Assembly (NCBI GenBank): GCA_051294905.1
Contig: CM119371.1
Coordinates: forward strand, 33,048,001 to 33,112,000
Length of the DNA stretch: 64,000 nt
Origin: Botryllus schlosseri
Taxonomy: Eukaryota
Reading direction: 5' to 3'
The translations under genes were made by a program, and so were the position numbers. Below, in pieces: positions 750 to 26,822 of the stretch. The notes under the pieces are model-generated. The model saw only the letters and a list, made by a program, of their open reading frames with translations, made no database searches and was not told the origin of the DNA. Position 1 is the first letter of the stretch. Each line of letters opens with the position of its first letter.

Positions 750-919
750 TGGAATCGAGGTTGGAATCGGAGTCGGAGTCGGTATTTTTAAAGACTCAGG
801 GGTCGGAGCCGGAGTCGGAGTCGGTACGTTTAAAGAATCGGGAGTCGGAGTCGGTCCATTGAAAATGTGTTGAGTCGGAGTTGGAGTCGGTGCTAAAATT
901 TACCGACTCCACTGCCCTG
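750..919. mobile_element. Terminal part of a hAT-type MITE with (GGAGTC)n subterminal repeats
   Basis: GGAGTC arrays ending ...TACCGACTCCACTGCCCTG; partner end not found. Confidence 0.5.
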
Positions 920-1867
920 ATATCTCGTAATCAATGCACCCCAGACGCCACTACCTCGTAGCAGGAAAATAATCACCACTCGGCCTAGTTTCAAATAGTT
1001 ACTTATGTATTGCTGTTTAGTTATAATTAGTTAAACCATGGTCGTTTACAATGACTATGGTTTAACTATGCATATGGTCAAATGCAGTTTTACCGTTGCT
1101 GATTGGCGAGCAGTAGCTCTATAATGGTACGGTATCGCAATCTTCGTTTATTCATCATGACTACAAGTGAGGCACTGCCTTACTTATCTCTCCTGATCGC
1201 ACGCTCCTGGTATGCACCAGAGATGAGCGAGAGATATTATGCAATCCAACTCCTTATCTAAGATTCAAATCAAGACCCTATCATGCCTCAATAGAGAATT
1301 ATTCCGGCAATGACACTGTAAATTCGTTTGAAAGACGAGAATCGGCGACAGTTGCGTAAGCCTTAAAGCAGGGGTCGCCAACCCCCGACACACCAAATGT
1401 CACACCAAATGATTTGCCGCACACGACACATATAATACTCAAGTTTGGTGTAAAACGAGTAACATGCTTTCAACGCGGAAAAAATCGCAGACGATCCAAT
1501 AATATCTCGTAATCAATTGATATTAAGTAAAGTGTTTTGGGGCAGGTTTTATTTTTTATGAAATTGTGTTTCGAGCCGGGACCCAATTTCTTGACCATAA
1601 TGTGGGAAACTCTCAAAATATATATACGGCAACCTAATACCGTATAAAATCGTTTGGATGCTTTAGAGCAGGGGTGTGCACTGTACAGCCTGTGGAAGCG
1701 CAACTATGTAATGAACAAGCATTTCGGCGCTGGGCATTTTTACGTTAGGAGACGCGCCTTTCGTACAACATGCGACTATGCAACCCCGTGCGCAGTGTGT
1801 GCTGCCAAAATGATAGGCGGCGATAAAACCTTAGTAGTATAGTCGATCGCTCGCGAACGGCCATTGG

Positions 1868-2212
1868 TTTCTTATGGCGGGGTCGCATGCTAACGCGAAA
1901 ACCGGGGGTGGCATGCTAACGTTTTCGTCTTATGGCGGGGTGGCATGCTAACGTTTTCGTCTTATGGCGGGGTGGCATGCTAACGTTTTCGTCTTATGGT
2001 GGGGGTGACATGCTAACGTTTTCGTCTTATGGCGGGGTGGCATGCTAACGTTTTCGTCTTATGGTGGGGGTGACATGCTAACGTTTTCGTCTTATGGCGG
2101 GGTGGCATGCTAACGTTTTCGTCTTATGGTGGGGGTGACATGCTAACGTTTTCGTCTTATGGGTGCGGTCGCATGATAACGCGAAACTCGTGGTGGCATG
2201 CTAATGTTTTTA
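1868..2212 (+). repeat. Subterminal 32/33-bp minisatellite (mirror copy ~15573-15917)
   Basis: Unit A GTTTTCGTCTTATGGCGGGGTGGCATGCTAAC and unit B GTTTTCGTCTTATGGTGGGGGTGACATGCTAAC in order AABABAB at 1921-2147, with degenerate flanking units. Confidence 0.95.
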
Positions 2213-2614
2213 GGTATACGTGCGGCGACATGTTAACGACGATAAATGTGTCTGTCTGTTGAATATGTACGAGTCACCAACAATAACCGCGCAAACGGAA
2301 ACGTGGCTTGTTGTGAGGATTACGCGTGCGACCTATATTTCGAATGACCTGCGTGCTGAATTATTTCCCGGCCAACCGCGTGCTACTATCGATTATTGCA
2401 CTAGACCAGTCAGTGTGAAATAGTTTGATCGTAAATTATGATATATGATGTCGTAGTTTAGTCGTGTCAAATGACCGATCGTGTTCTCTTTCCTCGCTAT
2501 TGATTGCTAGCTGAATAATACTTTCGGCTTATTCGCTGTTTCGCGCCTACAGAATAGTCTGCTGTTCACAGTCGCAACAAGAATCACAAGTATACACATT
2601 TACACATTCGTTTA

Positions 2615-3107
2615 TTACTCTGAAATCAAACTCTTCACAAAAACACGTACAATCGTATCATTCACTTTTTTTATCATCGCCAAAATTATCCAAGTATTCC
2701 TCGGTTGAAAACCCTTGAGCTCTTTTTATCAAGAATGCGATAGCATGATCTCCACACACATCTGAAGTTTTACTCTGTAACTGTTTCCCAGTCACTGAAA
2801 ATTCATCCGGCTCCAGGAATTCGATTATCTGAGGTTTTAGTGGTCCGAAGCCTAGCGAATCATGAAAATGAGTATCGTCATCTCTGTATATAGACACCCA
2901 GTGAGATCCAGGCAAACTCGATTCGTCGTAATTAATGGTGATAGCGAATTTTCCGCTAGTTGGTTTCTTCGGTAACTGATCTACTGGATAAGTTCGGCGA
3001 TTCGAATATCGACAATAACCGCGTTCGCATACTAACACTCTAAAAAGGTGTGAAATATTTGTAAAAATCCTACGACCACTCACAAGATAACACATCAGAA
3101 TAGTCAT
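2615..3107 (-). pseudogene. Adenain-like (Polinton PRO) cysteine protease, left-arm copy, frameshifted near the C-terminus
   Basis: Motifs NYDESSLPGSHWV (His), FHDSLG (Asp), QLQSKTSDVCG (Gln/Cys); exact mirror of 14678-15170. Confidence 0.85.
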
Positions 3108-6100
3108 CTCTCGTGGTTTGGTGTTACAAAGGTAGGAATTATAAGTAATATTTTGGACGACAATGATATATCGTTATTCTTATGGACGCGGCGACATGAT
3201 AACGTTACAGGTATAGGTTGTGGTGGTGATTCGCCATGTGTTCTTATGCGTGCGCTCGCACGTCGTACTTTCAAGTATAGGTATCTCTCGCATGTCGTAT
3301 TGGAAACTCGTGTTGGCTCGCTCACGCGGCGAAATTTTAGTAATCAGTTTGTCACAGTACTTGATATCGCTGGTAAGATTTAACAAGTAACGAATAACAG
3401 ACCGCGGTAACTTGAATAGCGACAAATTGTCACTTATTTCCGCTCTAACTCTAATCCTTTGTGAAGTGAACGCTTATTCAAAAGGGTGTGATATAATTTT
3501 AAAATCCAACGACCACTCACCGGATAATGCTTCAGACATATAGCAATCCCTCATACCCGCCTACAAGGTAATATTTCGGTAATTAGTTTGTCACAGAACC
3601 GTCGCAGGCGGTGATTGGAAAACCGACAATTTGTCACTCGCCCGCGATCGCTATATGTTTCACGCCTCCAGAATAGTGGCTGACTTTAGTTGCGTGATAA
3701 GATCCATGAAAATATTCAATCAATGTGTTAGTTTATCAACTTGAAATGAAACTCACTACACAAATCAAGTCGATTCGTATCTGAATGTTTTAAATCGGTA
3801 CAACTCTAATCCTTTGACAAAGCCCTTAACGCGTTTTTGGTGAATCGAACGTAACCCGAATATTACTGACGCCGACTTTCAGCCGCATCGAATTATTCGC
3901 ACATTCCGCGTCACTGTTTTCGCACTTATAGAATCAATACCAACTATAACTCTTCAAGAATCAAGAATCACAAGTATGTGCATTACACAGTTATTGTCTT
4001 TATTAACTTGAAATCAAACACTTAACAAAAACACACAACTAATCATTTGGCAACTCTAGCATTACCAAAAAATTCCAGTATTGTTGATTGAAAATCCTTG
4101 AGTCATTATTATCAAAAATGTTATAGTACCGCATCGGGATCCATTCGCGGGATGTACTAAAGGTAAATCCAAATAATCCACATTCGCGGGATGTACTAAA
4201 GGTAAATCCAAATAATCCACATTCGTGGGATGTACTAAAGGTAAATCCAAATAATCCAGAATGAAATATTTGGACTTTTACATAGTGTGAATTGAAATAG
4301 GATTGACAAACACGACTACCAACTTTGATCCAGCCACATTTCAAGATCATACTTTGAAACAAGTAATGTAACATTACAACTCTATTCACGATCCCGCTTT
4401 CCATTTGTCAAAGAAATATTTTAACATCTTACCATACTCAAAAGAATTATTCACAACATTAACAATTGTTAAAAATCTAGTTTTCACTTACTTGATTATA
4501 TCACTGCAACTCATAAATTTGAATTAATTCATCCTGGTTGTATTCGTATGCTCGGTCTTTTTTATTCAATTGTAAAGGTTGTTACTATTCTGAAGACAAA
4601 GTATTTACTAATCGGTGCATATACGATTTGACTTGGACATATTATATTTTGAGTATACGAGATTTGAATGTCTGAACAATAACTGAGAAATAATTTATCA
4701 CAATTAAATCCGTAATATTACAGCGTAAAAGATATTGGAATGTCAGCAACTCTGCAAGGTCATAGTTACTACCACTAATTTACCCGACCAACTCGTCATG
4801 ATCATTCCTGAAATCAACACAAACGTGACCACTGACTTGAGTTAACCACAAAACAGCATCAAGTTTTAAATCCACTTGTAGCTTACGGCTTATTTGAATG
4901 CGGGTTATGTTTTGTTGTAATTGAGTGTACGGAAATAGTATTACGTCTCGACATATCACCATGTCGGAATTTGTGGCAGAGAATTGAAACATATGCACTT
5001 TACAGAGTGTGAAAATATCACTTTGAGTATCGAGTACCGTTCGAAGCAAGCGATCAATTCTTAATCATTTCAGTAACTCCCCATTGTGTGTGCTAAATGT
5101 AAAATATCGCGAGGTTATACACTCTAAGACTTTGATTATCACAAAAGTAAATTGTGATATGTTTGTTAGATGCATCCAATTCAACTAGAAGTGTCTAGTG
5201 CCCAACACTCGTAATATCAAAAAAGTACTCGCTACACTGTTATTTGCTAAACGTGTTTTGCATTGTTGTTCATTTGTAGTATTGAATGAAATTGTTCTTG
5301 AACCCTCAAATAATAATTCCCGACATGAAACCAAGCCGCTGAAAGTCGTTACCATCACGAAGATACAATGTGTACGATGTTTGTCAAATGTGTCCTACCT
5401 GGCCAACAGAAAACAATTTTCACTAGCTTGGTAATGAAACCGAAGTCTCCATTCGATATATTGTTTGCGTCAAATACTTTACAACGAACACATTTGCGTG
5501 GTTGAGCTTTACATCATCAGACTGTCATCTGTACATCAAGAATACATCAGACTTGTAACTGGATCGTTTACCTAACCGAGTTGATATTTTTGTCATTTAG
5601 TGATTGCTGAACATACCACTTCGAAATACTGCGTTGATCTTAATTTCCATCATCGTGATAAGTGAAGTACATTTGTTTTGAATTCATAACAATAGGCTTT
5701 TCTACGACATGATAAATTATTGACAAGTTCTGCTTAGAAGATTGGTTGCATATCACGAAAAATAATATACCACACATATTATTACTGTTACTCCATTCAT
5801 CGGTATTTTTTCCGTTGTCGATTTTCAAACGAGTAAAATTTATTACTTGAGTTGCTCTGCTTAATGTAAATGTAAACTCGCCCATCTTTCAACAACAAAC
5901 AATGTTAAAATAGTATACAATCAAACACAACAAGTTTTACGATACTAATTATTATCCCACATAACCCATTTCTTACTGAAGACATATGAAATATATTCAT
6001 GTTACACGAAAATATTCGCTCATGCTACAAACCTGTACAATGATTGGTGGTGCTTTCAAACTGTTTCGATACCTCAAGAACTTTATTGTCTGAACGGTTG

Positions 6101-7089
6101 TTCATGTATCGTAATAATCAAGTAGTTAAACATAGAACTAGTATTAACAGAAACACCAGAGTTGTTTACACAAAAGTTTGTATGTGTACAGTATACGAAT
6201 ACCATTTGTAAGTCCAGCACAATTGTGGTATCCATACGAGTTTAGTTAACACAATTTACGACACCGAGGTCGCGTCATCTTTCGTAAGACAACAAACCAA
6301 GGCTTCAGGATATGTCCATGTCATAGCAATAAATCAGCTACTCCAACAACAGAGTGCATATGTTTCTAGTTACGGCGCTTACATCTTACACACAAATCAA
6401 TCTACTTTGCTAACGAAAAGTGGTGAGTCATCATATGGTTGTCCTCACAACTAAAACATACTATCACACAAAATGGTCGTTATAGTTTGCACACCAACGG
6501 TACATCGTACAAGTAACAAGTCTCGAGAATCCAGTTATTCAAAAAACGTGAAAGTATTTCTACACCAAGTCGTTATGTTGACGAAAGCGTATATTTTAAG
6601 ATCATGATCGATTTACATTCGTTGGTCACAAAATGTCACTACTCTAAATAATTATTTTTCACTCAAACACAAACGCATACTTGTCACCATTCGTTTTCAT
6701 CAAGCACGAGTTCAAGAAACTTACTTACTACGATATGAATTTTTATTTTTATGTTGTGTAAATAGGTAATAATTAATTCAAGTAACACTATATCAACATC
6801 ATCGAGTTGTGCTAATAGATTTACATGTGGTCTTGTGGTTTTCGTCGGGACATACAGCACGAACTAACTGTAGACTCCTCTCTGTTGTACAGCTACTCGG
6901 TAATCGAAATGCATTAACATGTAAACAACGATCTTGTTTCGTCACACCAAAAATATGTTCACTGTCGCGATACTCCGCACAAGACGTGCATAGCCTTTTC
7001 ACACTCGTAATAGTATACCAACGTCAAGCGATAACGTTTACCAACACCAACGACACTAAACCCACGACGTTTACCTATGTAAAATTACC

Positions 7090-7745
7090 ACTTTCACTTG
7101 TCAGTCCATCGTTTACCTGACTAAACATATTATTTTCCTTTGGAGATCTGGCGTTTACCCAGAGTAAGAAACCATTTTCACTTGTAAATATTTTTTTTTC
7201 CTCGGCTAACAAACCTTTTTTCACTTGTAAATATATTTTTTCTCTTGGTAATAAACCTTTTTCACATGGAAATATATTTTTTCTCTTGGTAATAAACCTT
7301 TTTCACATGGAAATATATTTTTTCTCTGAGTAACAAACCTTTTTCACATGGAAATATATTTTTTCTCTGAGTAACAAACCTTTTTCACTTGGAAATATAT
7401 TTTTTCTCTGGGTAACAAACCTTTTTCCCTTGGAAACATATTTTTTCCCCGGGTAACAAACCTTTTTCCCTGAGCAACAAACCTTTTTCACTTACAAATA
7501 TATTTTTTCCTGGTTAACAAACCTTTTTCACTTGGAAATATATTTTTTTTCCCTGGGTAACAAACCTTTTTCGCTTGGAAATATATTTTTCCCTGGGTTA
7601 CAAACCTTTTTCACTTGGTGATCCGTCGTTTACCTGAGTAAAAATATCATTTTCCTTTGGGGATCTGGCGTTTACCCAGTGTAACAATACATTTTCTCTT
7701 GGTCATCTAGCTTTTCCTAGAGTAACAAAACCATTTTCATTTTGA
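7090..7745 (+). repeat. AT-rich ~39-40-bp minisatellite (mirror ~10040-10695)
   Basis: Unit approximately GGTAACAAACCTTTTTCACTTGGAAATATATTTTTTCTCT, over a dozen diverged copies. Confidence 0.9.
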
Positions 7746-8482
7746 AATCTGACAACCACACCGACAATTTGATATTTTTGTATTTTCTTACAGCGAACAG
7801 CGACAAAATATACACCAACAACGACTCCGATACATTTGTCTAATCAAATATTCACTTGTGTTGGTGCATCCCATCAAAATCATCGGTTACCCACATGCAA
7901 TGCGCTCTTGTACACAGAAATGCATGTTTTGGAAACTTGGACAATAGGCTTCGATAGTTCTGTGCTGTCTGGGTTCGTGCTTTGGATTTTCCAGAGTCAA
8001 AATGTCTGAATAAAACACCTCCTCGACGATGGTTGGTATGTGGATAACGGTGTTCGGAAAACGGTTGGATTTATGTCACCCATCGCGATAACAATTCCAG
8101 GTCAAGTTTTCCCCTCGCATGTTTACTATATTGTGTCTTTATTGGTCAATGTATGCCTCGACATTCAGTTTGAAATCGGAAACCCTGATAAAGTATGCAA
8201 CCGGATCCGGATATCAACTCTGAATCGATAAACCAATGAACAATATTCAAAGTAAACATGTTACACCCTGTGTTTCCACGAAAAAATACCATCCAGACAT
8301 ACGTCGCGCTTGTTTGCCCACACCAGTATACGCGTAAATGGAGGTGTGTGACATTGCATGCAATGTGTTGGTATACAAACATCGATCCACAGACAATATC
8401 ATAGCCGGTAGTTTTGATGTAGATCGAATGTCATCACACCCGATAACAATACCAATAAGCCACATTGTAATGACTCTGAGTC

Positions 8483-9302
8483 CGCGGTATTAGTCATGAC
8501 CCTATCTCCGGACAGACGTCCCAGATCAATTGGAGACATCGATCAATATCCGTCGCGTTGTCGACACCGAACTTTTCTGCTGCAGCGTTTGACCAATGTG
8601 AACTATCGAAGTATGGGTGCTCGAAATGATTGCGATCAGTCTTTCAGTCACGATGCATCGATGTCGCTACTCCCACATAACGACTCCAGATAAATATCGT
8701 GAACAGTGATTCTGCAAATCTCGGACTGATACTGTGATCCAATAATGTGTGTTTCTGTGGAATCAAGACTGTAATCGTACACCACAATGGAAATCATAAA
8801 ACACATCATCGTAAGGATCCAGTTCGTCCTGTGACATTTCGAAACGGTCATCGCCACAATAGATCGGTATCATTTTGAAACGACATCGTCACAAGTGTAT
8901 TGACGTCGATTCTGTTGGTCATGTCAATCCATTTCACAATCCACCGTTTTTCAAGTCCCTGCACCATAGTGTTACGACACAGACAAGAAGCGACGGTGGA
9001 AATAATAAAACACGAAAAGCACACTTTGGTGTTATTTGACATGGATTTTACACGAGATGAACCTCACATTCGAGCGATGAATTGGAATGGTGATTGTATT
9101 GTTGACGTCAAAGGAAAAGAAATGTATCGATTTATCGGTTTCGTACATATCCAACAAAAATCTGGGTATATGATTGTGCATGGTTCGCATATTCGACTGT
9201 GAACGCCCAATTGGTATATGTTGTACAGTTCACTTTCACCGTCGTGCGAATAACCCATGTTAGGGTTCCATGTTTGTGTGTCTGTATGTCATGCTTCAGA
9301 TT
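8483..9302. other. 820-bp unique spacer of the palindrome; contains an unassigned 100-aa ORF (8900-9202, +)
   Basis: No mirror symmetry; the ORF shows no motif I recognise. Confidence 0.8.
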
Positions 9303-12300
9303 GACTCAGAGTCATTACAATGTGGCTTATTGGTATTGTTATCGGGTGTGATGACATTCGATCTACATCAAAACTACCGGCTATGATATTGTCTGTGGAT
9401 CGATGTTTGTATACCAACACATTGCATGCAATGTCACACACCTCCATTTACGCGTATACTGGTGTGGGCAAACAAGCGCGACGTATGTCTGGATGGTATT
9501 TTTTCGTGGAAACACAGGGTGTAACATGTTTACTTTGAATATTGTTCATTGGTTTATCGATTCAGAGTTGATATCCGGATCCGGTTGCATACTTTATCAG
9601 GGTTTCCGATTTCAAACTGAATGTCGAGGCATACATTGACCAATAAAGACACAATATAGTAAACATGCGAGGGGAAAACTTGACCTGGAATTGTTATCGC
9701 GATGGGTGACATAAATCCAACCGTTTTCCGAACACCGTTATCCACATACCAACCATCGTCGAGGAGGTGTTTTATTCAGACATTTTGACTCTGGAAAATC
9801 CAAAGCACGAACCCAGACAGCACAGAACTATCGAAGCCTATTGTCCAAGTTTCCAAAACATGCATTTCTGTGTACAAGAGCGCATTGCATGTGGGTAACC
9901 GATGATTTTGATGGGATGCACCAACACAAGTGAATATTTGATTAGACAAATGTATCGGAGTCGTTGTTGGTGTATATTTTGTCGCTGTTCGCTGTAAGAA
10001 AATACAAAAATATCAAATTGTCGGTGTGGTTGTCAGATTTCAAAATGAAAATGGTTTTGTTACTCTAGGAAAAGCTAGATGACCAAGAGAAAATGTATTG
10101 TTACACTGGGTAAACGCCAGATCCCCAAAGGAAAATGATATTTTTACTCAGGTAAACGACGGATCACCAAGTGAAAAAGGTTTGTAACCCAGGGAAAAAT
10201 ATATTTCCAAGCGAAAAAGGTTTGTTACCCAGGGAAAAAAAATATATTTCCAAGTGAAAAAGGTTTGTTAACCAGGAAAAAATATATTTGTAAGTGAAAA
10301 AGGTTTGTTGCTCAGGGAAAAAGGTTTGTTACCCGGGGAAAAAATATGTTTCCAAGGGAAAAAGGTTTGTTACCCAGAGAAAAAATATATTTCCAAGTGA
10401 AAAAGGTTTGTTACTCAGAGAAAAAATATATTTCCATGTGAAAAAGGTTTGTTACTCAGAGAAAAAATATATTTCCATGTGAAAAAGGTTTATTACCAAG
10501 AGAAAAAATATATTTCCATGTGAAAAAGGTTTATTACCAAGAGAAAAAATATATTTACAAGTGAAAAAAGGTTTGTTAGCCGAGGAAAAAAAAATATTTA
10601 CAAGTGAAAATGGTTTCTTACTCTGGGTAAACGCCAGATCTCCAAAGGAAAATAATATGTTTAGTCAGGTAAACGATGGACTGACAAGTGAAAGTGGTAA
10701 TTTTACATAGGTAAACGTCGTGGGTTTAGTGTCGTTGGTGTTGGTAAACGTTATCGCTTGACGTTGGTATACTATTACGAGTGTGAAAAGGCTATGCACG
10801 TCTTGTGCGGAGTATCGCGACAGTGAACATATTTTTGGTGTGACGAAACAAGATCGTTGTTTACATGTTAATGCATTTCGATTACCGAGTAGCTGTACAA
10901 CAGAGAGGAGTCTACAGTTAGTTCGTGCTGTATGTCCCGACGAAAACCACAAGACCACATGTAAATCTATTAGCACAACTCGATGATGTTGATATAGTGT
11001 TACTTGAATTAATTATTACCTATTTACACAACATAAAAATAAAAATTCATATCGTAGTAAGTAAGTTTCTTGAACTCGTGCTTGATGAAAACGAATGGTG
11101 ACAAGTATGCGTTTGTGTTTGAGTGAAAAATAATTATTTAGAGTAGTGACATTTTGTGACCAACGAATGTAAATCGATCATGATCTTAAAATATACGCTT
11201 TCGTCAACATAACGACTTGGTGTAGAAATACTTTCACGTTTTTTGAATAACTGGATTCTCGAGACTTGTTACTTGTACGATGTACCGTTGGTGTGCAAAC
11301 TATAACGACCATTTTGTGTGATAGTATGTTTTAGTTGTGAGGACAACCATATGATGACTCACCACTTTTCGTTAGCAAAGTAGATTGATTTGTGTGTAAG
11401 ATGTAAGCGCCGTAACTAGAAACATATGCACTCTGTTGTTGGAGTAGCTGATTTATTGCTATGACATGGACATATCCTGAAGCCTTGGTTTGTTGTCTTA
11501 CGAAAGATGACGCGACCTCGGTGTCGTAAATTGTGTTAACTAAACTCGTATGGATACCACAATTGTGCTGGACTTACAAATGGTATTCGTATACTGTACA
11601 CATACAAACTTTTGTGTAAACAACTCTGGTGTTTCTGTTAATACTAGTTCTATGTTTAACTACTTGATTATTACGATACATGAACAACCGTTCAGACAAT
11701 AAAGTTCTTGAGGTATCGAAACAGTTTGAAAGCACCACCAATCATTGTACAGGTTTGTAGCATGAGCGAATATTTTCGTGTAACATGAATATATTTCATA
11801 TGTCTTCAGTAAGAAATGGGTTATGTGGGATAATAATTAGTATCGTAAAACTTGTTGTGTTTGATTGTATACTATTTTAACATTGTTTGTTGTTGAAAGA
11901 TGGGCGAGTTTACATTTACATTAAGCAGAGCAACTCAAGTAATAAATTTTACTCGTTTGAAAATCGACAACGGAAAAAATACCGATGAATGGAGTAACAG
12001 TAATAATATGTGTGGTATATTATTTTTCGTGATATGCAACCAATCTTCTAAGCAGAACTTGTCAATAATTTATCATGTCGTAGAAAAGCCTATTGTTATG
12101 AATTCAAAACAAATGTACTTCACTTATCACGATGATGGAAATTAAGATCAACGCAGTATTTCGAAGTGGTATGTTCAGCAATCACTAAATGACAAAAATA
12201 TCAACTCGGTTAGGTAAACGATCCAGTTACAAGTCTGATGTATTCTTGATGTACAGATGACAGTCTGATGATGTAAAGCTCAACCACGCAAATGTGTTCG

Positions 12301-13380
12301 TTGTAAAGTATTTGACGCAAACAATATATCGAATGGAGACTTCGGTTTCATTACCAAGCTAGTGAAAATTGTTTTCTGTTGGCCAGGTAGGACACATTTG
12401 ACAAACATCGTACACATTGTATCTTCGTGATGGTAACGACTTTCAGCGGCTTGGTTTCATGTCGGGAATTATTATTTGAGGGTTCAAGAACAATTTCATT
12501 CAATACTACAAATGAACAACAATGCAAAACACGTTTAGCAAATAACAGTGTAGCGAGTACTTTTTTGATATTACGAGTGTTGGGCACTAGACACTTCTAG
12601 TTGAATTGGATGCATCTAACAAACATATCACAATTTACTTTTGTGATAATCAAAGTCTTAGAGTGTATAACCTCGCGATATTTTACATTTAGCACACACA
12701 ATGGGGAGTTACTGAAATGATTAAGAATTGATCGCTTGCTTCGAACGGTACTCGATACTCAAAGTGATATTTTCACACTCTGTAAAGTGCATATGTTTCA
12801 ATTCTCTGCCACAAATTCCGACATGGTGATATGTCGAGACGTAATACTATTTCCGTACACTCAATTACAACAAAACATAACCCGCATTCAAATAAGCCGT
12901 AAGCTACAAGTGGATTTAAAACTTGATGCTGTTTTGTGGTTAACTCAAGTCAGTGGTCACGTTTGTGTTGATTTCAGGAATGATCATGACGAGTTGGTCG
13001 GGTAAATTAGTGGTAGTAACTATGACCTTGCAGAGTTGCTGACATTCCAATATCTTTTACGCTGTAATATTACGGATTTAATTGTGATAAATTATTTCTC
13101 AGTTATTGTTCAGACATTCAAATCTCGTATACTCAAAATATAATATGTCCAAGTCAAATCGTATATGCACCGATTAGTAAATACTTTGTCTTCAGAATAG
13201 TAACAACCTTTACAATTGAATAAAAAAGACCGAGCATACGAATACAACCAGGATGAATTAATTCAAATTTATGAGTTGCAGTGATATAATCAAGTAAGTG
13301 AAAACTAGATTTTTAACAATTGTTAATGTTGTGAATAATTCTTTTGAGTATGGTAAGATGTTAAAATATTTCTTTGACAA

Positions 13381-13792
13381 ATGGAAAGCGGGATCGTGAA
13401 TAGAGTTGTAATGTTACATTACTTGTTTCAAAGTATGATCTTGAAATGTGGCTGGATCAAAGTTGGTAGTCGTGTTTGTCAATCCTATTTCAATTCACAC
13501 TATGTAAAAGTCCAAATATTTCATTCTGGATTATTTGGATTTACCTTTAGTACATCCCACGAATGTGGATTATTTGGATTTACCTTTAGTACATCCCGCG
13601 AATGTGGATTATTTGGATTTACCTTTAGTACATCCCGCGAATGGATCCCGATGCGGTACTATAACATTTTTGATAATAATGACTCAAGGATTTTCAATCA
13701 ACAATACTGGAATTTTTTGGTAATGCTAGAGTTGCCAAATGATTAGTTGTGTGTTTTTGTTAAGTGTTTGATTTCAAGTTAATAAAGACAAT
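13381..13792 (+). pseudogene. Decayed second protease paralog containing a 39-bp tandem triplication (mirror ~3993-4404, minus strand)
   Basis: ITFLIIMTQGFS and PND*LCVFVKCLISS* resemble IAFLIKRAQGFS and VNDTIVRVFVKSLISE* of the main copy; the 3' flanking DNA is also similar. Confidence 0.6.
13528..13643 (+). repeat. 39-bp x3 tandem repeat encoding GLFGFTFSTS(H/R)EC (mirror 4142-4257)
   Basis: GGATTATTTGGATTTACCTTTAGTACATCCC(A/G)CGAATG repeated three times. Confidence 0.95.
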
Positions 13793-14677
13793 AACTGTGT
13801 AATGCACATACTTGTGATTCTTGATTCTTGAAGAGTTATAGTTGGTATTGATTCTATAAGTGCGAAAACAGTGACGCGGAATGTGCGAATAATTCGATGC
13901 GGCTGAAAGTCGGCGTCAGTAATATTCGGGTTACGTTCGATTCACCAAAAACGCGTTAAGGGCTTTGTCAAAGGATTAGAGTTGTACCGATTTAAAACAT
14001 TCAGATACGAATCGACTTGATTTGTGTAGTGAGTTTCATTTCAAGTTGATAAACTAACACATTGATTGAATATTTTCATGGATCTTATCACGCAACTAAA
14101 GTCAGCCACTATTCTGGAGGCGTGAAACATATAGCGATCGCGGGCGAGTGACAAATTGTCGGTTTTCCAATCACCGCCTGCGACGGTTCTGTGACAAACT
14201 AATTACCGAAATATTACCTTGTAGGCGGGTATGAGGGATTGCTATATGTCTGAAGCATTATCCGGTGAGTGGTCGTTGGATTTTAAAATTATATCACACC
14301 CTTTTGAATAAGCGTTCACTTCACAAAGGATTAGAGTTAGAGCGGAAATAAGTGACAATTTGTCGCTATTCAAGTTACCGCGGTCTGTTATTCGTTACTT
14401 GTTAAATCTTACCAGCGATATCAAGTACTGTGACAAACTGATTACTAAAATTTCGCCGCGTGAGCGAGCCAACACGAGTTTCCAATACGACATGCGAGAG
14501 ATACCTATACTTGAAAGTACGACGTGCGAGCGCACGCATAAGAACACATGGCGAATCACCACCACAACCTATACCTGTAACGTTATCATGTCGCCGCGTC
14601 CATAAGAATAACGATATATCATTGTCGTCCAAAATATTACTTATAATTCCTACCTTTGTAACACCAAACCACGAGAG

Positions 14678-15170
14678 ATGACTATTCTGATGTGTTATCT
14701 TGTGAGTGGTCGTAGGATTTTTACAAATATTTCACACCTTTTTAGAGTGTTAGTATGCGAACGCGGTTATTGTCGATATTCGAATCGCCGAACTTATCCA
14801 GTAGATCAGTTACCGAAGAAACCAACTAGCGGAAAATTCGCTATCACCATTAATTACGACGAATCGAGTTTGCCTGGATCTCACTGGGTGTCTATATACA
14901 GAGATGACGATACTCATTTTCATGATTCGCTAGGCTTCGGACCACTAAAACCTCAGATAATCGAATTCCTGGAGCCGGATGAATTTTCAGTGACTGGGAA
15001 ACAGTTACAGAGTAAAACTTCAGATGTGTGTGGAGATCATGCTATCGCATTCTTGATAAAAAGAGCTCAAGGGTTTTCAACCGAGGAATACTTGGATAAT
15101 TTTGGCGATGATAAAAAAAGTGAATGATACGATTGTACGTGTTTTTGTGAAGAGTTTGATTTCAGAGTAA
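14678..15170 (+). pseudogene. Adenain-like (Polinton PRO) cysteine protease, right-arm copy, frameshifted near the C-terminus
   Basis: ORF 14678-15127 with PGSHW / FHDSLG / Q..S..CG; removing one A from the A7 run at 15113-15119 extends it as DKKVNDTIVRVFVKSLISE*. Confidence 0.85.
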
Positions 15171-15981
15171 TAAACGAATGTGTAAATGTGTATACTTGTG
15201 ATTCTTGTTGCGACTGTGAACAGCAGACTATTCTGTAGGCGCGAAACAGCGAATAAGCCGAAAGTATTATTCAGCTAGCAATCAATAGCGAGGAAAGAGA
15301 ACACGATCGGTCATTTGACACGACTAAACTACGACATCATATATCATAATTTACGATCAAACTATTTCACACTGACTGGTCTAGTGCAATAATCGATAGT
15401 AGCACGCGGTTGGCCGGGAAATAATTCAGCACGCAGGTCATTCGAAATATAGGTCGCACGCGTAATCCTCACAACAAGCCACGTTTCCGTTTGCGCGGTT
15501 ATTGTTGGTGACTCGTACATATTCAACAGACAGACACATTTATCGTCGTTAACATGTCGCCGCACGTATACCTAAAAACATTAGCATGCCACCACGAGTT
15601 TCGCGTTATCATGCGACCGCACCCATAAGACGAAAACGTTAGCATGTCACCCCCACCATAAGACGAAAACGTTAGCATGCCACCCCGCCATAAGACGAAA
15701 ACGTTAGCATGTCACCCCCACCATAAGACGAAAACGTTAGCATGCCACCCCGCCATAAGACGAAAACGTTAGCATGTCACCCCCACCATAAGACGAAAAC
15801 GTTAGCATGCCACCCCGCCATAAGACGAAAACGTTAGCATGCCACCCCGCCATAAGACGAAAACGTTAGCATGCCACCCCCGGTTTTCGCGTTAGCATGC
15901 GACCCCGCCATAAGAAACCAATGGCCGTTCGCGAGCGATCGACTATACTACTAACCTTTAAATACAATAACCGCATCTACA

Positions 15982-16672
15982 TGTGGCCCGCGAGAAGGTT
16001 TTGAGTGGCCCGCGAGGTAATTTCCGAAATTTCTAATATCATCAAAAGTGGATTGCACAGATCGTGAACTTGCAAGGCCAACCAAAAATTTGATTAGTCT
16101 GGCCGCAACACGTGAGATGTGATGACTAAAATATCAGTTTCGACTCATTGACAGATCCATCAACCATTCATATATTGGTATATCTTCGTACACTACAATA
16201 ACGCAGAATAATTTGCGATAGATTTATCAAAGATAAAAAATTTCTACAAGCTTAACGCAATATGTTGTCACTCGATTTCTTGTTCTTAATATTGTCGCCC
16301 TTTTGTGAAAATTGAAGAACACCCAATGTATCAGATTGAGTCTAACTATATTCGCGATTATGAGACAAACTGTCGTTCACCATATGCGACCATGCGTATG
16401 CGCTCGCAGTAAGACCGTCGACTATGAATCCTAGGCACAAAATGATTGACGTATGTTGGTGGCAGCTTTCGATATCAATATGTCCATCCGCCGAATAGCC
16501 CAGTCCTCGCAAACTTAGCCCAGCGATATACAGCAGGCCCGCAATATAGTCAAGTGACAATATTATTGACCTATGAACTTTAAAAAATTTTCGTGCTTCG
16601 CGCGGATAGTGGCCCGCGCAGAAGTTCGTCAATCGAATGTGGCCCTTTGGCTGAAAAGGTTCGCCAGCCCTG
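15982..16672. mobile_element. hAT-type MITE, one end truncated (family also at 38801-39484, ~47010-47342, 49746-50451, ~58935-59131)
   Basis: Ends ...AAAAGGTTCGCCAGCCCTG; GGCCCGCG subterminal motifs; inverse-similar to 49746-50451. Confidence 0.8.
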
Positions 16673-16974
16673 CATTAAACCAACTTGCATGATACAGGGG
16701 TGGGCACACTTTTCATCATCAGGTCTTATCATTGTAACATCTTTGATGGTCCTGTCACTTAAGGTTCGGTTAGACGATGAGTTGCCGCGAGGCATTCTTT
16801 GTTTATTCTAAAGACTCCCTGTACCGCGATCTGACTCGCTCTGACGCGCCCTGGCGGCGCGAGCTAACGCGAAACTCCCGCCGCGCGGTAGCGCTTGATA
16901 ACGCTCCTGTAGCGTCTTTTGAGCGTCTGCGCGATGCACTTTGTGAGTTTGTTCAGTTTGTTGGTCTTGCGAGT

Positions 16975-19152
16975 ATGGACAACGAGAGAAGACGTCAAAT
17001 TTTGCTGGCTAGGTCTGCATGCTTGGTCGGTGCATGTTATTTGGTGGAACTGAGGAAATTGAATTCAAGGAGAAAAAAACGCTCAAAATGGGTGCGGCAG
17101 TTGTACCTGCGCAGGAAGTCGCAAGGTATGTACCGGTCTAGTACACTACAAAGTGCACTCTAGTCAAGTCATATGCAAGACAGTAGGTTGATTTAGTATC
17201 ATTTAGGGTTTTAATGATCAATTGATGTCTTAAAACCGAGACTGTATATAATATAGATCAGAGGTATCAAACACGCTGCCCGCGGGCCGCATGCGGCCCG
17301 CCAGAGCATTTTGTGCGGCCCGCGACGACATTTTAGATTTTTAATAATTTGAAAATATTTTAGTGTCACACATATCTTTCAGGTTATAAAGACAAATCCC
17401 CTCTTAAATTGCCCCGAAAGCCTGAAACTATTCATCAAACTTCACTGTCACATCAATTGCAAACGCTACCGGTATACCATGCAGTGGAAGATTCACTATT
17501 TCGCCACATTTCCAATTCATGATGACAAAACCTGACCCATGGACGATTCGTGACTGAAATTTGTGAGTTGGACTTGGACACGACCTTTCTTAGAATTACT
17601 CAGACTCGGGCTAACTCAATGGCAAAATGAAAATGACTCGAGTGGACTAGGAGTGATGACTCGGAATACCGTCAATTTGTTAGAACCATGGACGCAACAA
17701 ACTAATCGCGTATCAGGGGAATAGTAATAGATCAGAAGGTCGCAGCTTAGTATTTCGCTAACTAAGCAAGTAGTTATGGCAACCATTAGCAATCTGTCAG
17801 TTACATCTTTGGTCGCTAAACCATGTTATTAAGGCCACTTACAGGTACCGAGTACCATAGTGGTACGCTCCAACGATGTAACAGCAATGGGCTACTACTA
17901 GTCTACTGCTCAACAAGCATCCCGGGCCCTGGTCTTGATAATAATGTGACCAGAGAGTTGTCATAAGATAAAAAACGCAAGACACAACTAGCTTGTTGAG
18001 ACCATTTTTCATGGTTCAGTATTTATTGCCTCATTGTTACTCACCAATTTTCATATTCAACAGGTCATTTCCACCAACTTGTTACAGAATTGGAATTGGA
18101 GGGAGAAGACATGTTCATAAACTTTTTCCGAATGAACAAGGCGCAATACCAAGCACTACTGCGACTGATTGGACCAAGTATCACCAAACAAGCCACATGT
18201 ATGAGGGAACCCATTGGTCCTTCTGAGAGGCTTGCTGTTACTTTGAGATTTCTTGCTACTGGAAATGACTACCATTCCCTTGGCTATAGTTTTCGGATAC
18301 ACCACACAACAATCTGTAAAATCGTCCCTGAAACATGTCAGGCCGTATGGAATTGCCTTCAACCTATCGTTTTACCTCGGCCTACATCTTCAAAATTGAA
18401 GGAGGTATCCATGCAATTTCAATCAAGGTGGAACTTCCCCAACTGTGTCGGCGCAATCGACGGAAAACATGTGGAAATAGAGGCTCCACCAAATTCCGGC
18501 TCTTGGTACTTCAACTACAAAAAAGACCTTCAGCATGGTGCTAATGGCAATAACGGATGTAAATTATAAATTTCTGTGGGTTTCAATCGGCTCGTATGGA
18601 CGAAATGCTGATGCTGGGATATTTAGCCATTCCGACTTCGGAAAACAAATAATAGACGGTACATTGGAATTACCTGCTGACCAGCCATTAGTACCCGGAC
18701 TACCCAGTATGCCACATGTTTTCGTTGCGGATGAGGCATTTCCGTTGTGCCGCAACTTGATGAGACCCTTCCCGGCAAAAAAGCTCACTCAGTCAAGAAA
18801 AATTTTCAATTACCGCTTATCAAAAGCCAGAAGGACAGTTGAAAATACTTTCGAAATTATGTCTGCTAAATTCCGCGTGTTTCGCAAGCCGTTGTGCTTG
18901 AAACCTGAAAATGTGGATGAAGTTGTGAAAGCGTGTGTCTGTCTGCACAATTTTCTCAGAAAAGACAATTGCTCATCTCGGCGCGAACCTAGTATTCCCA
19001 ATCACTCATCTGCAGCCTTCACATCCCTCGATCGGGTTGGAAGAGGTGTCTCGGGAGAAGCAAAAGCTATACGCGAAGCCTTCATGCAGTACTTTACCAG
19101 CGCAGCCGGTGAAATAAGTAGTCAAGTTAAATATGTCAATCGCGTACGCTGA
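16975..19152 (+). pseudogene. Harbinger DDE transposase: exon 16975-17125, GT-AG intron 17126-18063, exon 18064-19152; one +1 frameshift at A6 18519-18524
   Basis: Splicing gives in-frame RKSQG-HFHQLVTELELEGEDMFINFFRM; motifs LAVTLRFLATG, GAIDGKH, NYK(K)TFSMVL, ADEAFPL, FNYRLSKARRTVENTF, ACVCLHNF. Confidence 0.9.
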
Positions 19153-20821: not shown

Positions 20822-21148
20822 CATATAACATGGATTTATGCAGCTGTTGCGGTTTGGAGTGCTACAAAACCCCACTATATAAGGCATTGCTAGTTCAGGA
20901 TATCATTTCCACGTCCCACACTGCCTTAGAACTGCTCAAAACTACCTAAAACTGATAGTCATTTTGTTGGATCACATATCCTACACCCCGCAAACCTACC
21001 TGGCACTGCTCATCAATTTCCTGGATCTCCTCCATGTGCAAGAATACAACTGTAAATGTAACATCCACTCACAGCCACATTATAAAAATCACAGGAAACG
21101 AAAAAATAAGGCAAAGAAAGAGATCAGCTTGGCAAAATATTACATAAA

Positions 21149-22397
21149 TCAGGTGGATGAAATGGTTGCTTTCGAGAAATCTGCATATCTGTTCCGGTTA
21201 TCTTCCACAGCTTGTAGGAGGCTCGCTCGCTGTTTTTTGTCATCCGCTATGAACGCAGCATAGTCGGTATTCAATTGTACCATACGCTCTGCTGCATCGT
21301 TAACTACTTCAACAGTATTCACAAATTCTTGAGCAGTCACGAAATCCGGATCAGTATGCCATTCCGAAACTGGAAGACTCAACCAATCATGTTCCACATG
21401 TATAGCATCAAATAGAAACCACGATTCTGGCCCAATCAAATCGACCATACTAATTGACTCAGAGACAGAGATCAGACTGAGACGCATACCTCTGCGAAAT
21501 TTTTCAGGGATTGGCATTTTCAGCAATTTAGCAGCTATCGCTTCCTTCAGTTTGTCAGGAATCTTTGGATTAGCCGAGAACATGGTAAATACCACCATTT
21601 CCTCAGTTAGATACCAATGATGTTTTTGCAATTTCTTGTATGCCACATCAGCAACAGTGAGATCACATAATGAAAGGTTTTTCATGTCATGAAGGAATTT
21701 GAGATCATTCTAAGGTGCGTCACATGCAATACCAGTTTTCAACCAAGCTGGAACATAAAACAAAGCTATGAATGTATTGATTCGTTCCAGCTTTTCAATG
21801 AACTCTTCAGAATAGTCCATTTGCTCACTCCACATGAACATTTTTTGACAGTACAGGACTTGACTCATCCATCTAGCGCTATGAGTAGCAGCAGGCTTGC
21901 GAATACGATGATCAACATTTGTCATCCAAAATCGCCAAGGTGCCTGTTGCACATTCTCTGTAGTCATCTCTTATCGAGACTTCTTTCTGCTTTCCATCAT
22001 TGGGTTTCATCAGTGGAATTATTTCTTGCTTTGCTTCATCAGCTTTCATCGCCAACCAGCTGCCTTCCATAATCTTCAGCGTATTGTAGCGTCTTGATTT
22101 ATCAATATGTTTCCACTTCTTCTTGAAGGTATTAAAATCCTGTTTTCAGGGCCTGTGGTTGTCGATCCAAACAAACACTTCCAAACCTCTCGAATGACCA
22201 GTTCATAAATATGATGGCGAGAGGCATCGTAGAAAACTTTCCTGTTAATCAATTCTTTAAGTAACGGAACCGCACCTTTGTTTTTACCAGTGTTTGAGGA
22301 TGTTGTGTCAAACACAAGAGCTCTAACAGATTTTGTTAAATTCCAAAGTTCCAGCAGTTCAATTGATGCATCAGTCTGTGCTTTCCTGCAGCACTTT
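21149..22397 (-). pseudogene. hATm-like transposase, 5'-truncated and frameshifted
   Basis: FDTTSSNTG..KGA, SRHHIYEL (CxxH region), HSARWM, HHWYLTEE, VVNDAAER across three broken ORFs. Confidence 0.8.
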
Positions 22398-22633
22398 CCG
22401 ACTATGCTGCGTTCATAACGGATGACAAAAAACAGCGAGCGAGCCTCCTACAAGCTGTGGAAGGTCACCGGAACAGATATGCAGATTTCTCGAAAGCAGC
22501 CATTTCATCCACCTGAGTTATGTAATATTTTGCCAAGTTGATCTCTTTCTTTGCCTTATTTTTTCGTTTCCTGTGATGTTTATAATGTGGCTGTGAGTGG
22601 ATGTTACATTTACAGTTGTATTCTTGCACATGG

Positions 22634-26549: not shown

Positions 26550-26822
26550 CCTTATATAGTGGGGTTTTGTAGCACTCCAAACCGCAACAGCTGCATAAAT
26601 CCATGTTATATGTCACTTTAACTAGGCTAGGTAAAATCGTGACACTAAGATTTTAGGGGAATCCCCTATTTTCAGCTGCTATTCTTCCAGCTCAATGTGC
26701 ACACGGATGCAGGGGACAAGTTACAAAAAAAAGTAGCCAGAATATGTTTTTAAGGTATAAGGCATGGGGATCGGACTGAAAACCTGGACTTTTTGAAAGT
26801 CGGTCAATTCTGAACAACCCTA

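What the first reader, a model, noticed from the sequence alone, without database searches (positions are those of the whole stretch)
1833..15952. A 14-kb palindromic, single-ended Polinton: candidate copy-back/defective viral genome integrated in the chromosome
Seen: AGTAGT termini, exact 6-bp TSD, two 6,650-bp inverted arms, an 820-bp spacer, and protease remnants as the only recognisable genes. Known: Polintons/Mavericks have AG...CT termini, 6-bp TSDs, TIRs usually hundreds of bp to about 1 kb, and encode pPolB, integrase, ATPase, capsids and an adenain protease. Inference: both ends derive from one parental end by template switching, giving a non-autonomous replicon mobilised in trans by a helper Polinton, analogous to copy-back defective genomes. 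The doubling brings the element near ordinary Polinton length, which might matter if packaging is size-dependent (speculative).
Basis: partly seen in the sequence, partly recalled or inferred. Interest (0 to 1): 0.9.

Follow-up and report, generated by a model that had tools for sequence, protein, structure and literature searches.

The report
Palindromic gene-less Polinton-derived transposon family
This is one of several hundred copies of a 14-kb hairpin-shaped, practically gene-less derivative of a virus-like transposon (Polinton/Maverick) that sits beside intact relatives in the same animal genome, and the way its two halves stay identical may show how such elements copy themselves.

Summary
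The arms 1833-8482 and 9303-15952 are 6,650 nt each with 0 mismatches. The spacer is 820 bp, the termini read AGTAGT...ACTACT, the 6-bp target duplication is AACCTT, and a truncated protease gene in each arm is the only recognisable coding sequence.

It is not a one-off defective genome and not an assembly artefact. Nine other elements read end to end have the same build: 6-bp duplications that differ between elements and 5.9-6.7-kb arms that are 98.8-100% identical.

Genome-wide, the terminal motif occurs 2,016 times (control 2). Three arm-end ("axis") motifs occur 1,557 times, which gives roughly 780 palindromes.

Elements encoding protein-primed polymerase, rve integrase and ATPase, plus ORFs resembling a capsid protein and an adenain-type protease, share the same termini and subterminal repeat array. 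Their inverted ends are only 0.9-1.1 kb.

Differences between copies are mirrored in both arms (for example 207 mirrored against 7 arm-specific). A swapped terminal module sits identically on both ends of a near-identical sister copy.

Best reading: a non-autonomous snap-back Polinton derivative moved in trans. The arms are probably made symmetrical during single-strand (panhandle) replication, and arm-to-arm conversion in the chromosome is not excluded.

This scan noted the same family before, on other DNA of this genome (e1-7786796, e1-7786340).

The parts
1827..1832 (.). Left copy of the 6-bp target-site duplication (AACCTT)
1833..8482 (+). Left arm, 6,650 nt
   Evidence: 0 of 6,650 mismatches to the reverse complement of the right arm
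1833..2256 (+). Terminal module of 424 bp. It holds the 21-nt terminal motif (1833-1853) and a subterminal array of about 32-bp units (1905-2181), with 9 copies of a 14-nt core that start 80 nt from the tip.
   Evidence: The same array in the same phase is found in 2 autonomous elements (10 and 7 cores) and in 5 other palindromic copies. The module is replaced by an unrelated 506-bp module in the near-identical C2 copy.
1833..2578 (+). Stretch homologous to the terminal inverted repeat found at both ends of the autonomous Polintons
   Evidence: 77.6-85.4% identity to both ends of the C1 and C6 autonomous elements
2667..2993 (-). Protease gene remnant (residues 64-172 of 188; the N-terminal 63 residues are missing). 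Window 2579-2993 is homologous only to the protease end of the autonomous elements.
   Evidence: The full-length ORF resembles Peptidase_C5 clusters (a lead only; Pfam gave no hit).
2994..8482 (+). Non-coding, mosaic interior of the arm, with a 39-bp x3 repeat (4142-4258) and an array of about 41-bp units (7164-7739). Collinear blocks are shared with the other palindromic copies.
8483..9302 (.). Unique spacer (loop), 820 bp, at a 'type A' axis
   Evidence: The type A arm-end motif occurs 460 + 464 times in the genome.
9303..15952 (-). Right arm, the exact reverse complement of the left arm
14792..15118 (+). Mirrored protease remnant
15953..15958 (.). Right copy of the 6-bp target-site duplication (AACCTT)

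Best explanation
The element is an integrated member of a very abundant family of non-autonomous, practically gene-less derivatives of the Polinton/Maverick elements living in the same genome.

Shown here:
- It has the same AGTAGT termini, the same 6-bp target duplication and the same subterminal repeat array as elements that encode a protein-primed DNA polymerase, an rve integrase and an ATPase, plus ORFs resembling a capsid protein and an adenain-type protease.
- Its arms begin with the TIR of those elements plus, in this subfamily, 415 bp taken from their protease end.
- Hundreds of copies with different target duplications keep the palindromic build.
- Changes between copies, including a complete swap of the terminal module, are present on both arms.

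Inferred:
- The element supplies only cis sites. The helper's integrase, and probably its terminal-protein/polymerase machinery, act on it in trans.
- The palindrome arose by copy-back (snap-back).
- It stays symmetrical because a strand displaced during protein-primed replication folds on itself into a 6.6-kb stem with an 820-nt loop. Mismatches in the stem are repaired, and a non-matching end is recopied from the other arm, as in the panhandle repair of adenovirus ends (recalled, not read here).
- Arm-to-arm gene conversion in the chromosome probably adds to this.
- The narrow length range (13.4-14.4 kb in 9 copies that share only part of their sequence) suggests a length constraint such as packaging.
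For: Architecture and mobility
- Arms are identical at 6,650 of 6,650 positions, with an AACCTT duplication.
- All 12 elements read at both ends (10 palindromic, 2 autonomous-like) have AGTAGT termini and their own matching 6-bp duplication.
- Six other elements have arms of 6,190-6,712 nt at 99.54-99.95% identity. C16 has 5,881 nt at 98.8%. C10 has 6,293 nt at 100%.

Helper link
- Two elements of 15.4 and 15.8 kb with the same termini have TIRs of 1,089 and 887 nt.
- They carry rve (E = 1.1e-16), DNA_pol_B_2 (1.5e-7) and weak ATPase hits.
- They also carry ORFs that resemble double-jelly-roll and Peptidase_C5 clusters.
- Window 1833-2578 matches both of their ends. Window 2579-2993 matches only the protease end.
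- The 14-nt core array is shared in the same phase.
- A polymerase search gave 54 matches, 45 of them without a stop inside.

Abundance
- Terminal motif: 1,012 + 1,004 matches, against 0 + 2 for the control.
- Axis motifs: 460 + 464, 95 + 95 and 225 + 218, against controls of 0, 1 and 0.
- Of 36 terminal pairs on the first 25.6 Mb of contig 1, 23 enclose an axis motif. This is a hand tally.

Lock-step arms (mirrored against arm-specific substitutions)
- C11 vs C7: 207 against 7.
- Window vs C4: 176 against 0.
- Window vs C10: 46 against 0.
- C3a vs C24: 26 against 11.
- Window vs C2: 15 against 7.

End copying
- The window and C2 copies differ by 15 mirrored substitutions in about 5.7 kb.
- Their terminal modules (424 and 506 bp) are unrelated, and the C2 module is identical on both C2 ends, with 0 of 506 differences.
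- Conversion in the chromosome would need homology outside the element to do this. That step is an inference.

Recurrent or renewed axes
- There are three axis types. A and C have partly homologous spacers; the centre of B is unrelated.
Against: - No extrachromosomal, hairpin or packaged form was seen, and helper dependence is inferred only from shared ends.
- The nested-insertion test did not follow the age order expected if the arms diverge freely after insertion. The outermost, necessarily oldest, element has 1 difference in 4,405 nt; the middle one has 6 in 1,686; the innermost has 1 in 2,000. This fits conversion in the chromosome, or polishing of the assembly.
- Only 10 palindromic elements of about 780 were read. 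Seven of them were chosen because they scored highest against the window's terminus, and the other three because they scored highest against its inner arm.
- The public-run data were short contigs, and none listed bridges a flank junction or links both arms.
- The protease fragment that marks 'one parental end' is present in only 2 of the 10 palindromic elements. For the rest of the family the single-end origin is not shown.
- The arm interior (2994-8482) has no detectable relation to the autonomous elements.
Confidence: 0.6

Rival explanations
1. It is an ordinary non-autonomous DNA transposon of foldback shape. The Polinton integrase cuts and pastes it, with no replicative or viral stage. 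The arms stay identical only because inverted repeats in a chromosome convert each other, as in the large palindromes of sex chromosomes (recalled).
For: - Nested test: the oldest element has the most similar arms (1 difference in 4,405 nt, against 6 in 1,686 and 1 in 2,000).
- Arms of all 10 palindromic elements are at least 98.8% identical, whatever the subfamily.
- No extrachromosomal form was observed.
Against: - A complete 424-to-506-bp swap of the terminal module is present identically on both ends of a copy that differs from the window copy by only 15 mirrored substitutions in about 5.7 kb of the remaining arm. The chromosome offers no homology outside the termini to carry such a conversion (inference).
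- The central regions were also replaced symmetrically (type B).
- Lengths are narrowly clustered although the content is mosaic.
Confidence: 0.28
2. It is a foldback transposon of a different superfamily that merely picked up Polinton-like ends or resembles them.
For: The arm interior (2994-8482) and the spacer have no similarity to the autonomous Polintons. Foldback build is known from other superfamilies, such as FB and Galileo (listing; otherwise recalled).
Against: - 77.6-85.4% DNA identity over the terminal 0.75-1.2 kb to elements carrying pPolB, rve and ATPase.
- The same 21-nt tip motif and the same phased core array.
- A 6-bp duplication in 12 of 12 elements.
- A protease fragment 94.5% identical at the protein level.
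- No other transposase is found inside.
Confidence: 0.07
3. It is a single copy-back defective genome that integrated once at this locus, or an assembly artefact that folded one arm back.
For: The arms are perfectly identical. No contig in the public runs bridges the junctions.
Against: - Nine other elements have the same architecture and different target duplications.
- There are about 780 axis motifs paired in inverted orientation.
- Near-identical sister copies lie on contigs 2 and 7.
- Arm and spacer sequence is present in contigs of three samples from three studies.
Confidence: 0.03

Closest known systems
Autonomous Polinton/Maverick elements (polintoviruses)
   Same: AG...CT termini, a 6-bp target duplication, terminal sequence and subterminal array shared with pPolB/rve-encoding elements of the same genome, and a fragment of their adenain-like protease gene.
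   Different: It has no polymerase, integrase, ATPase or capsid gene. Its TIRs are 6.65 kb, against 0.9-1.1 kb in the relatives, and they make up 94% of the element. Most of the arm is unrelated non-coding DNA.
Foldback-type transposons (Drosophila FB; Galileo of the P superfamily): a structural class. Details are recalled; Galileo's abstract was seen in the listing.
   Same: The element is almost entirely two long inverted arms around a short loop. The arms contain internal tandem repeats. It is non-coding and abundant.
   Different: The arms are several-fold longer than the roughly 1-kb TIRs I recall for Galileo. The ends and target duplication are those of an integrase- and polymerase-encoding virus-like element, not of a P-type or FB-type transposase.
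Defective adenovirus genomes with long inverted repeats made from one genome end, and panhandle repair of adenovirus ITRs. This is recalled. Only the title of Daniell 1976 was seen, in a reference list, and the paper itself is not held.
   Same: Both are protein-primed linear replicons in which both ends of a defective genome come from one parental end. A mechanism exists that copies one end onto the other. Packaging polarity and size limits are involved.
   Different: Those are transient laboratory products. Here the form is heritable, integrated, diversified and present in hundreds of copies. No replication or packaging has been observed.
Hairpin and palindromic derivatives of the terminal-protein-primed linear killer plasmid of Kluyveromyces lactis. 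Recalled from memory only; not confirmed by searches.
   Same: A protein-primed linear replicon gives rise to a one-ended hairpin form and to its inverted dimer with the same terminus at both ends.
   Different: It is a cytoplasmic plasmid, with no integrase and no chromosomal copies.
Large chromosomal palindromes kept alike by arm-to-arm gene conversion (recalled)
   Same: Near-identical arms and mirrored evolution.
   Different: Those are not mobile and have no target duplications or transposon termini.

Membership tests
Polinton/Maverick | 6-bp target-site duplication | tested here: met
   AACCTT on both sides. 12 of 12 related elements have their own 6-bp duplication.
Polinton/Maverick | Terminal inverted repeats beginning 5'-AG and ending CT-3' (definition recalled) | tested here: met
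   AGTAGT...ACTACT. The TIR is 6.65 kb, far longer than the few hundred bp to about 1 kb that I recall as typical.
Polinton/Maverick | [quoted passage not shown] | tested here: not met
   None in this element. Present in relatives with the same termini (PF03175, E = 1.5e-7; 54 genomic matches).
Polinton/Maverick | Encodes a retroviral-type (rve) integrase | tested here: not met
   None in this element. Present in a relative with the same termini (PF00665, E = 1.1e-16).
Polinton/Maverick | Morphogenetic module: capsid proteins, packaging ATPase, adenain-like protease | tested here: not met
   Only a protease fragment (residues 64-172 of 188) in each arm. The relatives have weak ATPase hits, a DJR-like ORF and a C5-like protease by Atlas likeness only.
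Non-autonomous derivative of the resident Polintons | Shares termini and subterminal cis sequence with autonomous elements of the same genome | tested here: met
   77.6-85.4% identity over 0.75-1.2 kb, the same 21-nt motif, and the same phased 14-nt core array (9 copies here, 10 and 7 in the autonomous elements).
Non-autonomous derivative of the resident Polintons | Mobilised in trans by the helper's proteins | not testable with these tools
   Inferred from many insertions with distinct duplications and no coding capacity.
Copy-back / snap-back defective genome | Both ends derive from the same parental end | tested here: met
   Window 2579-2993, including the protease fragment, matches only the protease end of the autonomous elements and is present in both arms. 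This holds for the window/C2 subfamily only. The other 8 palindromic elements keep just the TIR part.
Copy-back / snap-back defective genome | Generated and propagated during helper-dependent replication | not testable with these tools
   Indirect only: mirrored changes, the symmetric terminal swap and several axis types. The nested test points partly the other way.
Foldback transposons (structural class) | Long inverted arms form nearly the whole element around a short loop; no coding capacity | tested here: met
   The arms are 94% of the element.

The most novel reading that the evidence does not exclude
The palindromes are true satellites (defective-interfering-like genomes) of active polintoviruses of this animal.
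- They replicate by the helper's protein-primed machinery through snap-back hairpin intermediates that remake both arms from one.
- They are size-selected for the helper's capsid.
- They change helpers by swapping the terminal module.

If so, they would be the first natural satellite of a Polinton, and the first sequence-level evidence that Polintons replicate through single-stranded panhandle intermediates.
Probability: 0.3. Interest if true: 0.85.

Novelty: new variant of a known kind. Interest (0 to 1): 0.62.

Why it matters
How Polintons/Mavericks replicate and move has, to my knowledge (recalled), not been shown by experiment.

This family offers about 780 natural "experiments". A gene-less derivative outnumbers its likely helpers. 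It keeps 6-kb arms in lock-step and copies new ends from one arm to the other. It also holds a narrow length despite mosaic content.

These patterns make concrete ideas directly testable: single-strand panhandle intermediates, end repair, a packaging size limit and helper specificity of the terminal module.

The family also puts roughly 10 Mb (about 2% of the genome, by inference from the counts) of very long near-perfect palindromes into an animal genome. That bears on genome stability and on assembly quality.

No description of a palindromic or foldback non-autonomous Polinton appeared in the full-text searches.

Tried and rejected
- **Pfam on ORFs.** Ten arm and spacer ORFs gave nothing. 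Neither the remnant ORF nor the full-length protease ORF of the C6 element got a Pfam hit. The PDB sequence search gave only a chance hit at E = 1.2. The family assignment therefore rests on Atlas likeness and on my own reading of catalytic-looking residues.
- **RNA genes.** Rfam and tRNA scans of 1500-16300 found nothing.
- **Public runs.** No RNA holder was listed.
- **Laying four runs on window 800-9800.** This gave only short contigs. The element is covered at very high summed depth in three samples of three studies, but no listed contig bridges a flank junction. The RNA run gave 57 reads, 56 of them only partly on the stretch. This is no evidence on expression or on the junctions. I laid only the left half plus the spacer, so an empty-site allele could not show as a joint.
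- **Viral and metagenome collections.** None was similar to window 1833-9302 beyond the motif. These are chance matches.
- **Whole-genome file.** Not available.
- **Tally script.** The tally of 36 pairs was done by hand from the coordinates printed.
- **Literature.** The Daniell 1976 paper is not held. Searches for the yeast hairpin plasmid gave nothing useful.
- **Not tested.**
  - Whether the C2-type terminal module belongs to a different helper lineage. One search shows it on many 12.6-14.3-kb pairs and on two 18.3-18.4-kb pairs, but no polymerase match could be tied to those.
  - Whether hairpin RNA from the arms silences the helper protease.
Full report
**1. The observation**

The window holds an inverted repeat whose arms the repeat finder places at 1826-8482 and 9303-15959. 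The outer 7 bases are only a partial match. The arms proper, 1833-8482 and 9303-15952, are 6,650 nt each and differ at 0 of 6,650 positions. Between them lies an 820-bp unique spacer (8483-9302). The element starts AGTAGT and ends ACTACT, and AACCTT stands directly outside both ends.

The arms are almost free of recognisable genes:
- Ten ORFs of 80 aa or more gave no Pfam hit better than E = 0.97.
- There is no Rfam family and no tRNA.
- The only coding remnant is a protease fragment at 2993-2667 (-), mirrored at 14792-15118 (+).

**2. The genome and the family**

The window lies in a 495.5-Mb eukaryotic assembly of 219 contigs.

All parts of the element are highly repeated, and the tool scores only about 40 candidates per search:

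| Query | First-look candidates |
|---|---|
| Terminal 568 bp | 1,741 |
| Spacer | 957 |
| Inner arm | 2,256 |
| Mid-arm | 2,793 |

The hits come in inverted pairs 13-15 kb apart for the termini, about 0.8-2 kb apart for the inner arm and mostly about 7.5-9.5 kb apart for the mid-arm. That is the spacing the same palindromic build predicts.

I read eleven further elements at both ends. All 12, including the window copy, begin AGTAGT and have their own matching 6-bp duplication:

| Element | Duplication |
|---|---|
| window | AACCTT |
| C3a | CTGGCA |
| C4 | TGCGAT |
| C24 | CCCCCA |
| C11 | ATCGTA |
| C7 | CTCGGA |
| C16 | GGCGCC |
| C10 | TAGGAC |
| C2 | AACAAC |
| C3b | CACGTT |
| C1b (autonomous-like) | CACGGG |
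| C6 (autonomous-like) | GTGGTG |

Ten of the twelve are palindromes. Their arm lengths and identities are:
- window: 6,650 nt, 100%;
- 6,712 nt, 99.54%; 6,388 nt, 99.92%; 6,515 nt, 99.95%; 6,413 nt, 99.94%; 6,190 nt, 99.90%; and 5,881 nt, 98.8%;
- C10: 6,293 nt, 100%;
- C2: 99.85% over the 1,934 nt of outer arm compared;
- C3b: a two-axis 22.9-kb form, also palindromic.

The palindrome is thus a heritable architecture that inserts as such. It is not an accident of this locus or of the assembly.

**3. Link to Polintons**

Two elements with the same termini are 15,362 and 15,830 bp long and have inverted ends of only 1,089 nt (91.5%) and 887 nt (99.2%).

Of 17 of their ORFs, 3 hit Pfam and 14 hit nothing:
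- rve integrase, E = 1.1e-16;
- DNA_pol_B_2, E = 1.5e-7;
- a small ATPase with weak AAA and Pox_A32 hits.

Two further ORFs resemble known clusters by Atlas likeness only, which is a lead and not a test:
- a 432-aa ORF resembles double-jelly-roll-domain clusters (score 0.98);
- the 188-aa ORF at the very end resembles Peptidase_C5 clusters of Preplasmiviricota (score 0.96).

A search with the polymerase found 54 matches at 70-100% identity, 45 of them without a stop inside. The genome therefore holds many gene-bearing Polintons.

The homology between the window arm and these elements has a clear pattern:
- Window 1833-2578 is 77.6-85.4% identical to both ends of these elements.
- Window 2579-2993 matches only their protease end.
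- The window fragment corresponds to residues 64-172 of the 188-aa protease at 94.5% identity.

A 14-nt core repeated every 32-33 bp, starting about 80 nt from the tip, occurs 9 times in the window terminus. It occurs 10 and 7 times in the two autonomous elements and 7-10 times in five other palindromic copies, always in the same phase. It is absent from 5 kb of arm interior.

These shared ends, the shared duplication length and the gene fragment tie the palindromes to the resident Polintons directly. Beyond 2993 the arm has no detectable relation to them.

**4. Abundance**

| Motif | Forward + reverse matches | Control |
|---|---|---|
| 21-nt terminal motif | 1,012 + 1,004 | 0 + 2 |
| Type A arm end (window, C4, C10) | 460 + 464 | 0 + 0 |
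| Type B arm end (C3a, C24) | 95 + 95 | 1 + 0 |
| Type C arm end (C11, C7) | 225 + 218 | 0 + 0 |

The arm-end motifs mostly occur as inverted pairs about 0.36-1.1 kb apart. That gives about 1,000 elements and about 780 axes.

I also made a hand tally of the first 100 listed termini (contig 1, 0-25.6 Mb), which form 36 plus/minus pairs:
- 31 pairs have the same 21-mer at both ends.
- 22 pairs are 12.8-15.5 kb long after subtracting nested members.
- 23 pairs enclose an axis motif.
- 1 pair (18.3 kb) encloses a listed polymerase match.

Palindromes therefore outnumber gene-bearing elements by roughly two or three to one. By inference they occupy about 10 Mb, or about 2% of the genome.

**5. How the arms evolve**

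The arms of different copies share collinear blocks separated by unrelated stretches, so the family is old and mosaic. Yet differences between copies are almost always present on both arms of each copy.

| Comparison | Mirrored substitutions | Arm-specific |
|---|---|---|
| C11 vs C7 | 207 | 7 |
| window vs C4 | 176 | 0 |
| window vs C10 | 46 | 0 |
| C3a vs C24 | 26 | 11 |
| window vs C2 | 15 | 7 |

The spacer, which has no partner, diverges about as much as the arms: 91.7% against 94.6%, 84.9% against 87.5%, and 88.2% against 89.0%.

The most telling case is the C2 copy. Across about 5.7 kb of arm it differs from the window copy by 15 mirrored substitutions. Its terminal module, however, is a different, unrelated 506-bp sequence in place of the window's 424 bp. 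It lacks the core array and is identical on both C2 ends, with 0 of 506 differences.

The centre also varies. Types A and C have partly homologous spacers (about 77% over 240 bp). Type B departs from A about 490 bp before the axis and has an unrelated 339-634-bp spacer. Both the ends and the centre can thus be replaced, and each time the result is symmetrical again.

**6. Mechanism**

What is shown is symmetry that is restored after point changes, after a terminal swap and after central replacement.

I infer a process in which one arm templates the other outside the chromosome. In protein-primed strand-displacement replication, the mode assumed for Polintons from their polymerase, the displaced strand of a palindrome would fold into a 6.6-kb stem with the spacer as loop. 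Repair of mismatches in that stem, and re-extension of a non-matching 3' end on the 5' arm, would give exactly these patterns. Adenovirus panhandle repair is the textbook analogue; I recall it and did not read it here.

A conversion event in the chromosome cannot easily move a terminal block, because there is no homology outside it.

One test points the other way. In a nest of three elements on contig 1, the outermost element must be the oldest. It has 1 difference in 4,405 nt between its arms. The middle one has 6 in 1,686 and the innermost 1 in 2,000. Arm-to-arm conversion in the chromosome, ectopic conversion, or assembly polishing must therefore also be considered. I put the replication-coupled model at roughly even odds and plain conversion plus cut-and-paste at about 0.28.

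Nine palindromic copies measure 13,367-14,411 bp although they share only part of their sequence. Likely autonomous elements measure 15.4-18.6 kb. A length constraint such as packaging is plausible but untested.

**7. What failed or is missing**

- Public runs gave only short contigs. The element is present at high summed depth in three samples of three studies, but nothing bridges the junctions. An RNA run gave 57 mostly partial reads.
- No relative was found in viral or metagenome contigs.
- Seven of the ten palindromes read were picked as best matches to the window's terminus and three as best matches to its inner arm, which is a bias towards the window's relatives.

**8. Comparison and novelty**

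By its ends and its target duplication the element is a non-autonomous Polinton/Maverick derivative. By shape it is a foldback transposon. By origin it resembles copy-back defective genomes of protein-primed replicons.

It fails the gene-content definition of a Polinton, having no polymerase and no integrase, so it is a derivative and not a member proper.

Full-text searches for non-autonomous, palindromic, foldback or long-TIR Polintons/Mavericks found no description of such elements. The single paper with the phrase 'non-autonomous polintons' uses it for Tlr1 elements (passages read). A review of giant transposons says nothing on this in the passages I read.

The same family was noted twice before by this scan, on other DNA of this genome (e1-7786796 and e1-7786340). 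My results agree with those notes and add:
- the direct homology to gene-bearing Polintons;
- the genome-wide counts;
- the three axis types;
- the symmetric terminal swap;
- the nested-age test.

I rate it a new variant of a known kind, with interest 0.62.

Noticed in passing
L047-L049 (contig 3: 21977423-22000338): A 22.9-kb element with the same termini and a CACGTT duplication contains two type-B axes, in the order arm-axis-arm-arm-axis-arm. This alternating-arm 'double palindrome' looks like a concatemer or the product of unequal arm recombination.
   Followed up: partly
contig 1: 16768420-16810257 (L202-L209): Three family members are nested one inside another (41.8, 28.7 and 14.7 kb). 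The outermost, which must be oldest, has the most similar arms: 1 difference in 4,405 nt, against 6 in 1,686 and 1 in 2,000.
   Followed up: partly
L053/L054 (contig 2: 34862523-34876933) against window 1833-2256: A sister copy is nearly identical inside but has an unrelated 506-bp terminal module on both ends, without the 14-nt core array. The same module type occurs on many other pairs, including two 18.3-18.4-kb pairs. It may belong to a second helper lineage.
   Followed up: partly
window 18000-19152 (+) and 26820-27398 (-): There is a PIF/Harbinger-type transposase ORF (DDE_Tnp_4, E = 6.2e-27) about 2 kb to the right of the element, and a weak MADF-like ORF further on.
   Followed up: no
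window 36447-37007, 43168-43790 and 21032-22633: Three small foldback-like inverted repeats: 265-nt arms 31 nt apart, 174-nt arms 275 nt apart, and 236-nt arms 1,130 nt apart.
   Followed up: no
window 16000-16677 and 49741-50418; window 800-1100: The right flank of the element is itself a repeat: 678 nt, 92% complementary to a copy 33 kb away. The left flank at 800-1100 is high-copy in the runs and holds a 42-bp tandem repeat at 768-854. The element therefore sits in repeat-rich DNA.
   Followed up: no
own genome: The polymerase matches fall into a 92-100% group and a 70-76% group relative to the query. Open frames reach about 1,300 aa, against 844 aa in the contig 1 element used as query, so that element's polymerase ORF is a shortened form.
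   Followed up: no
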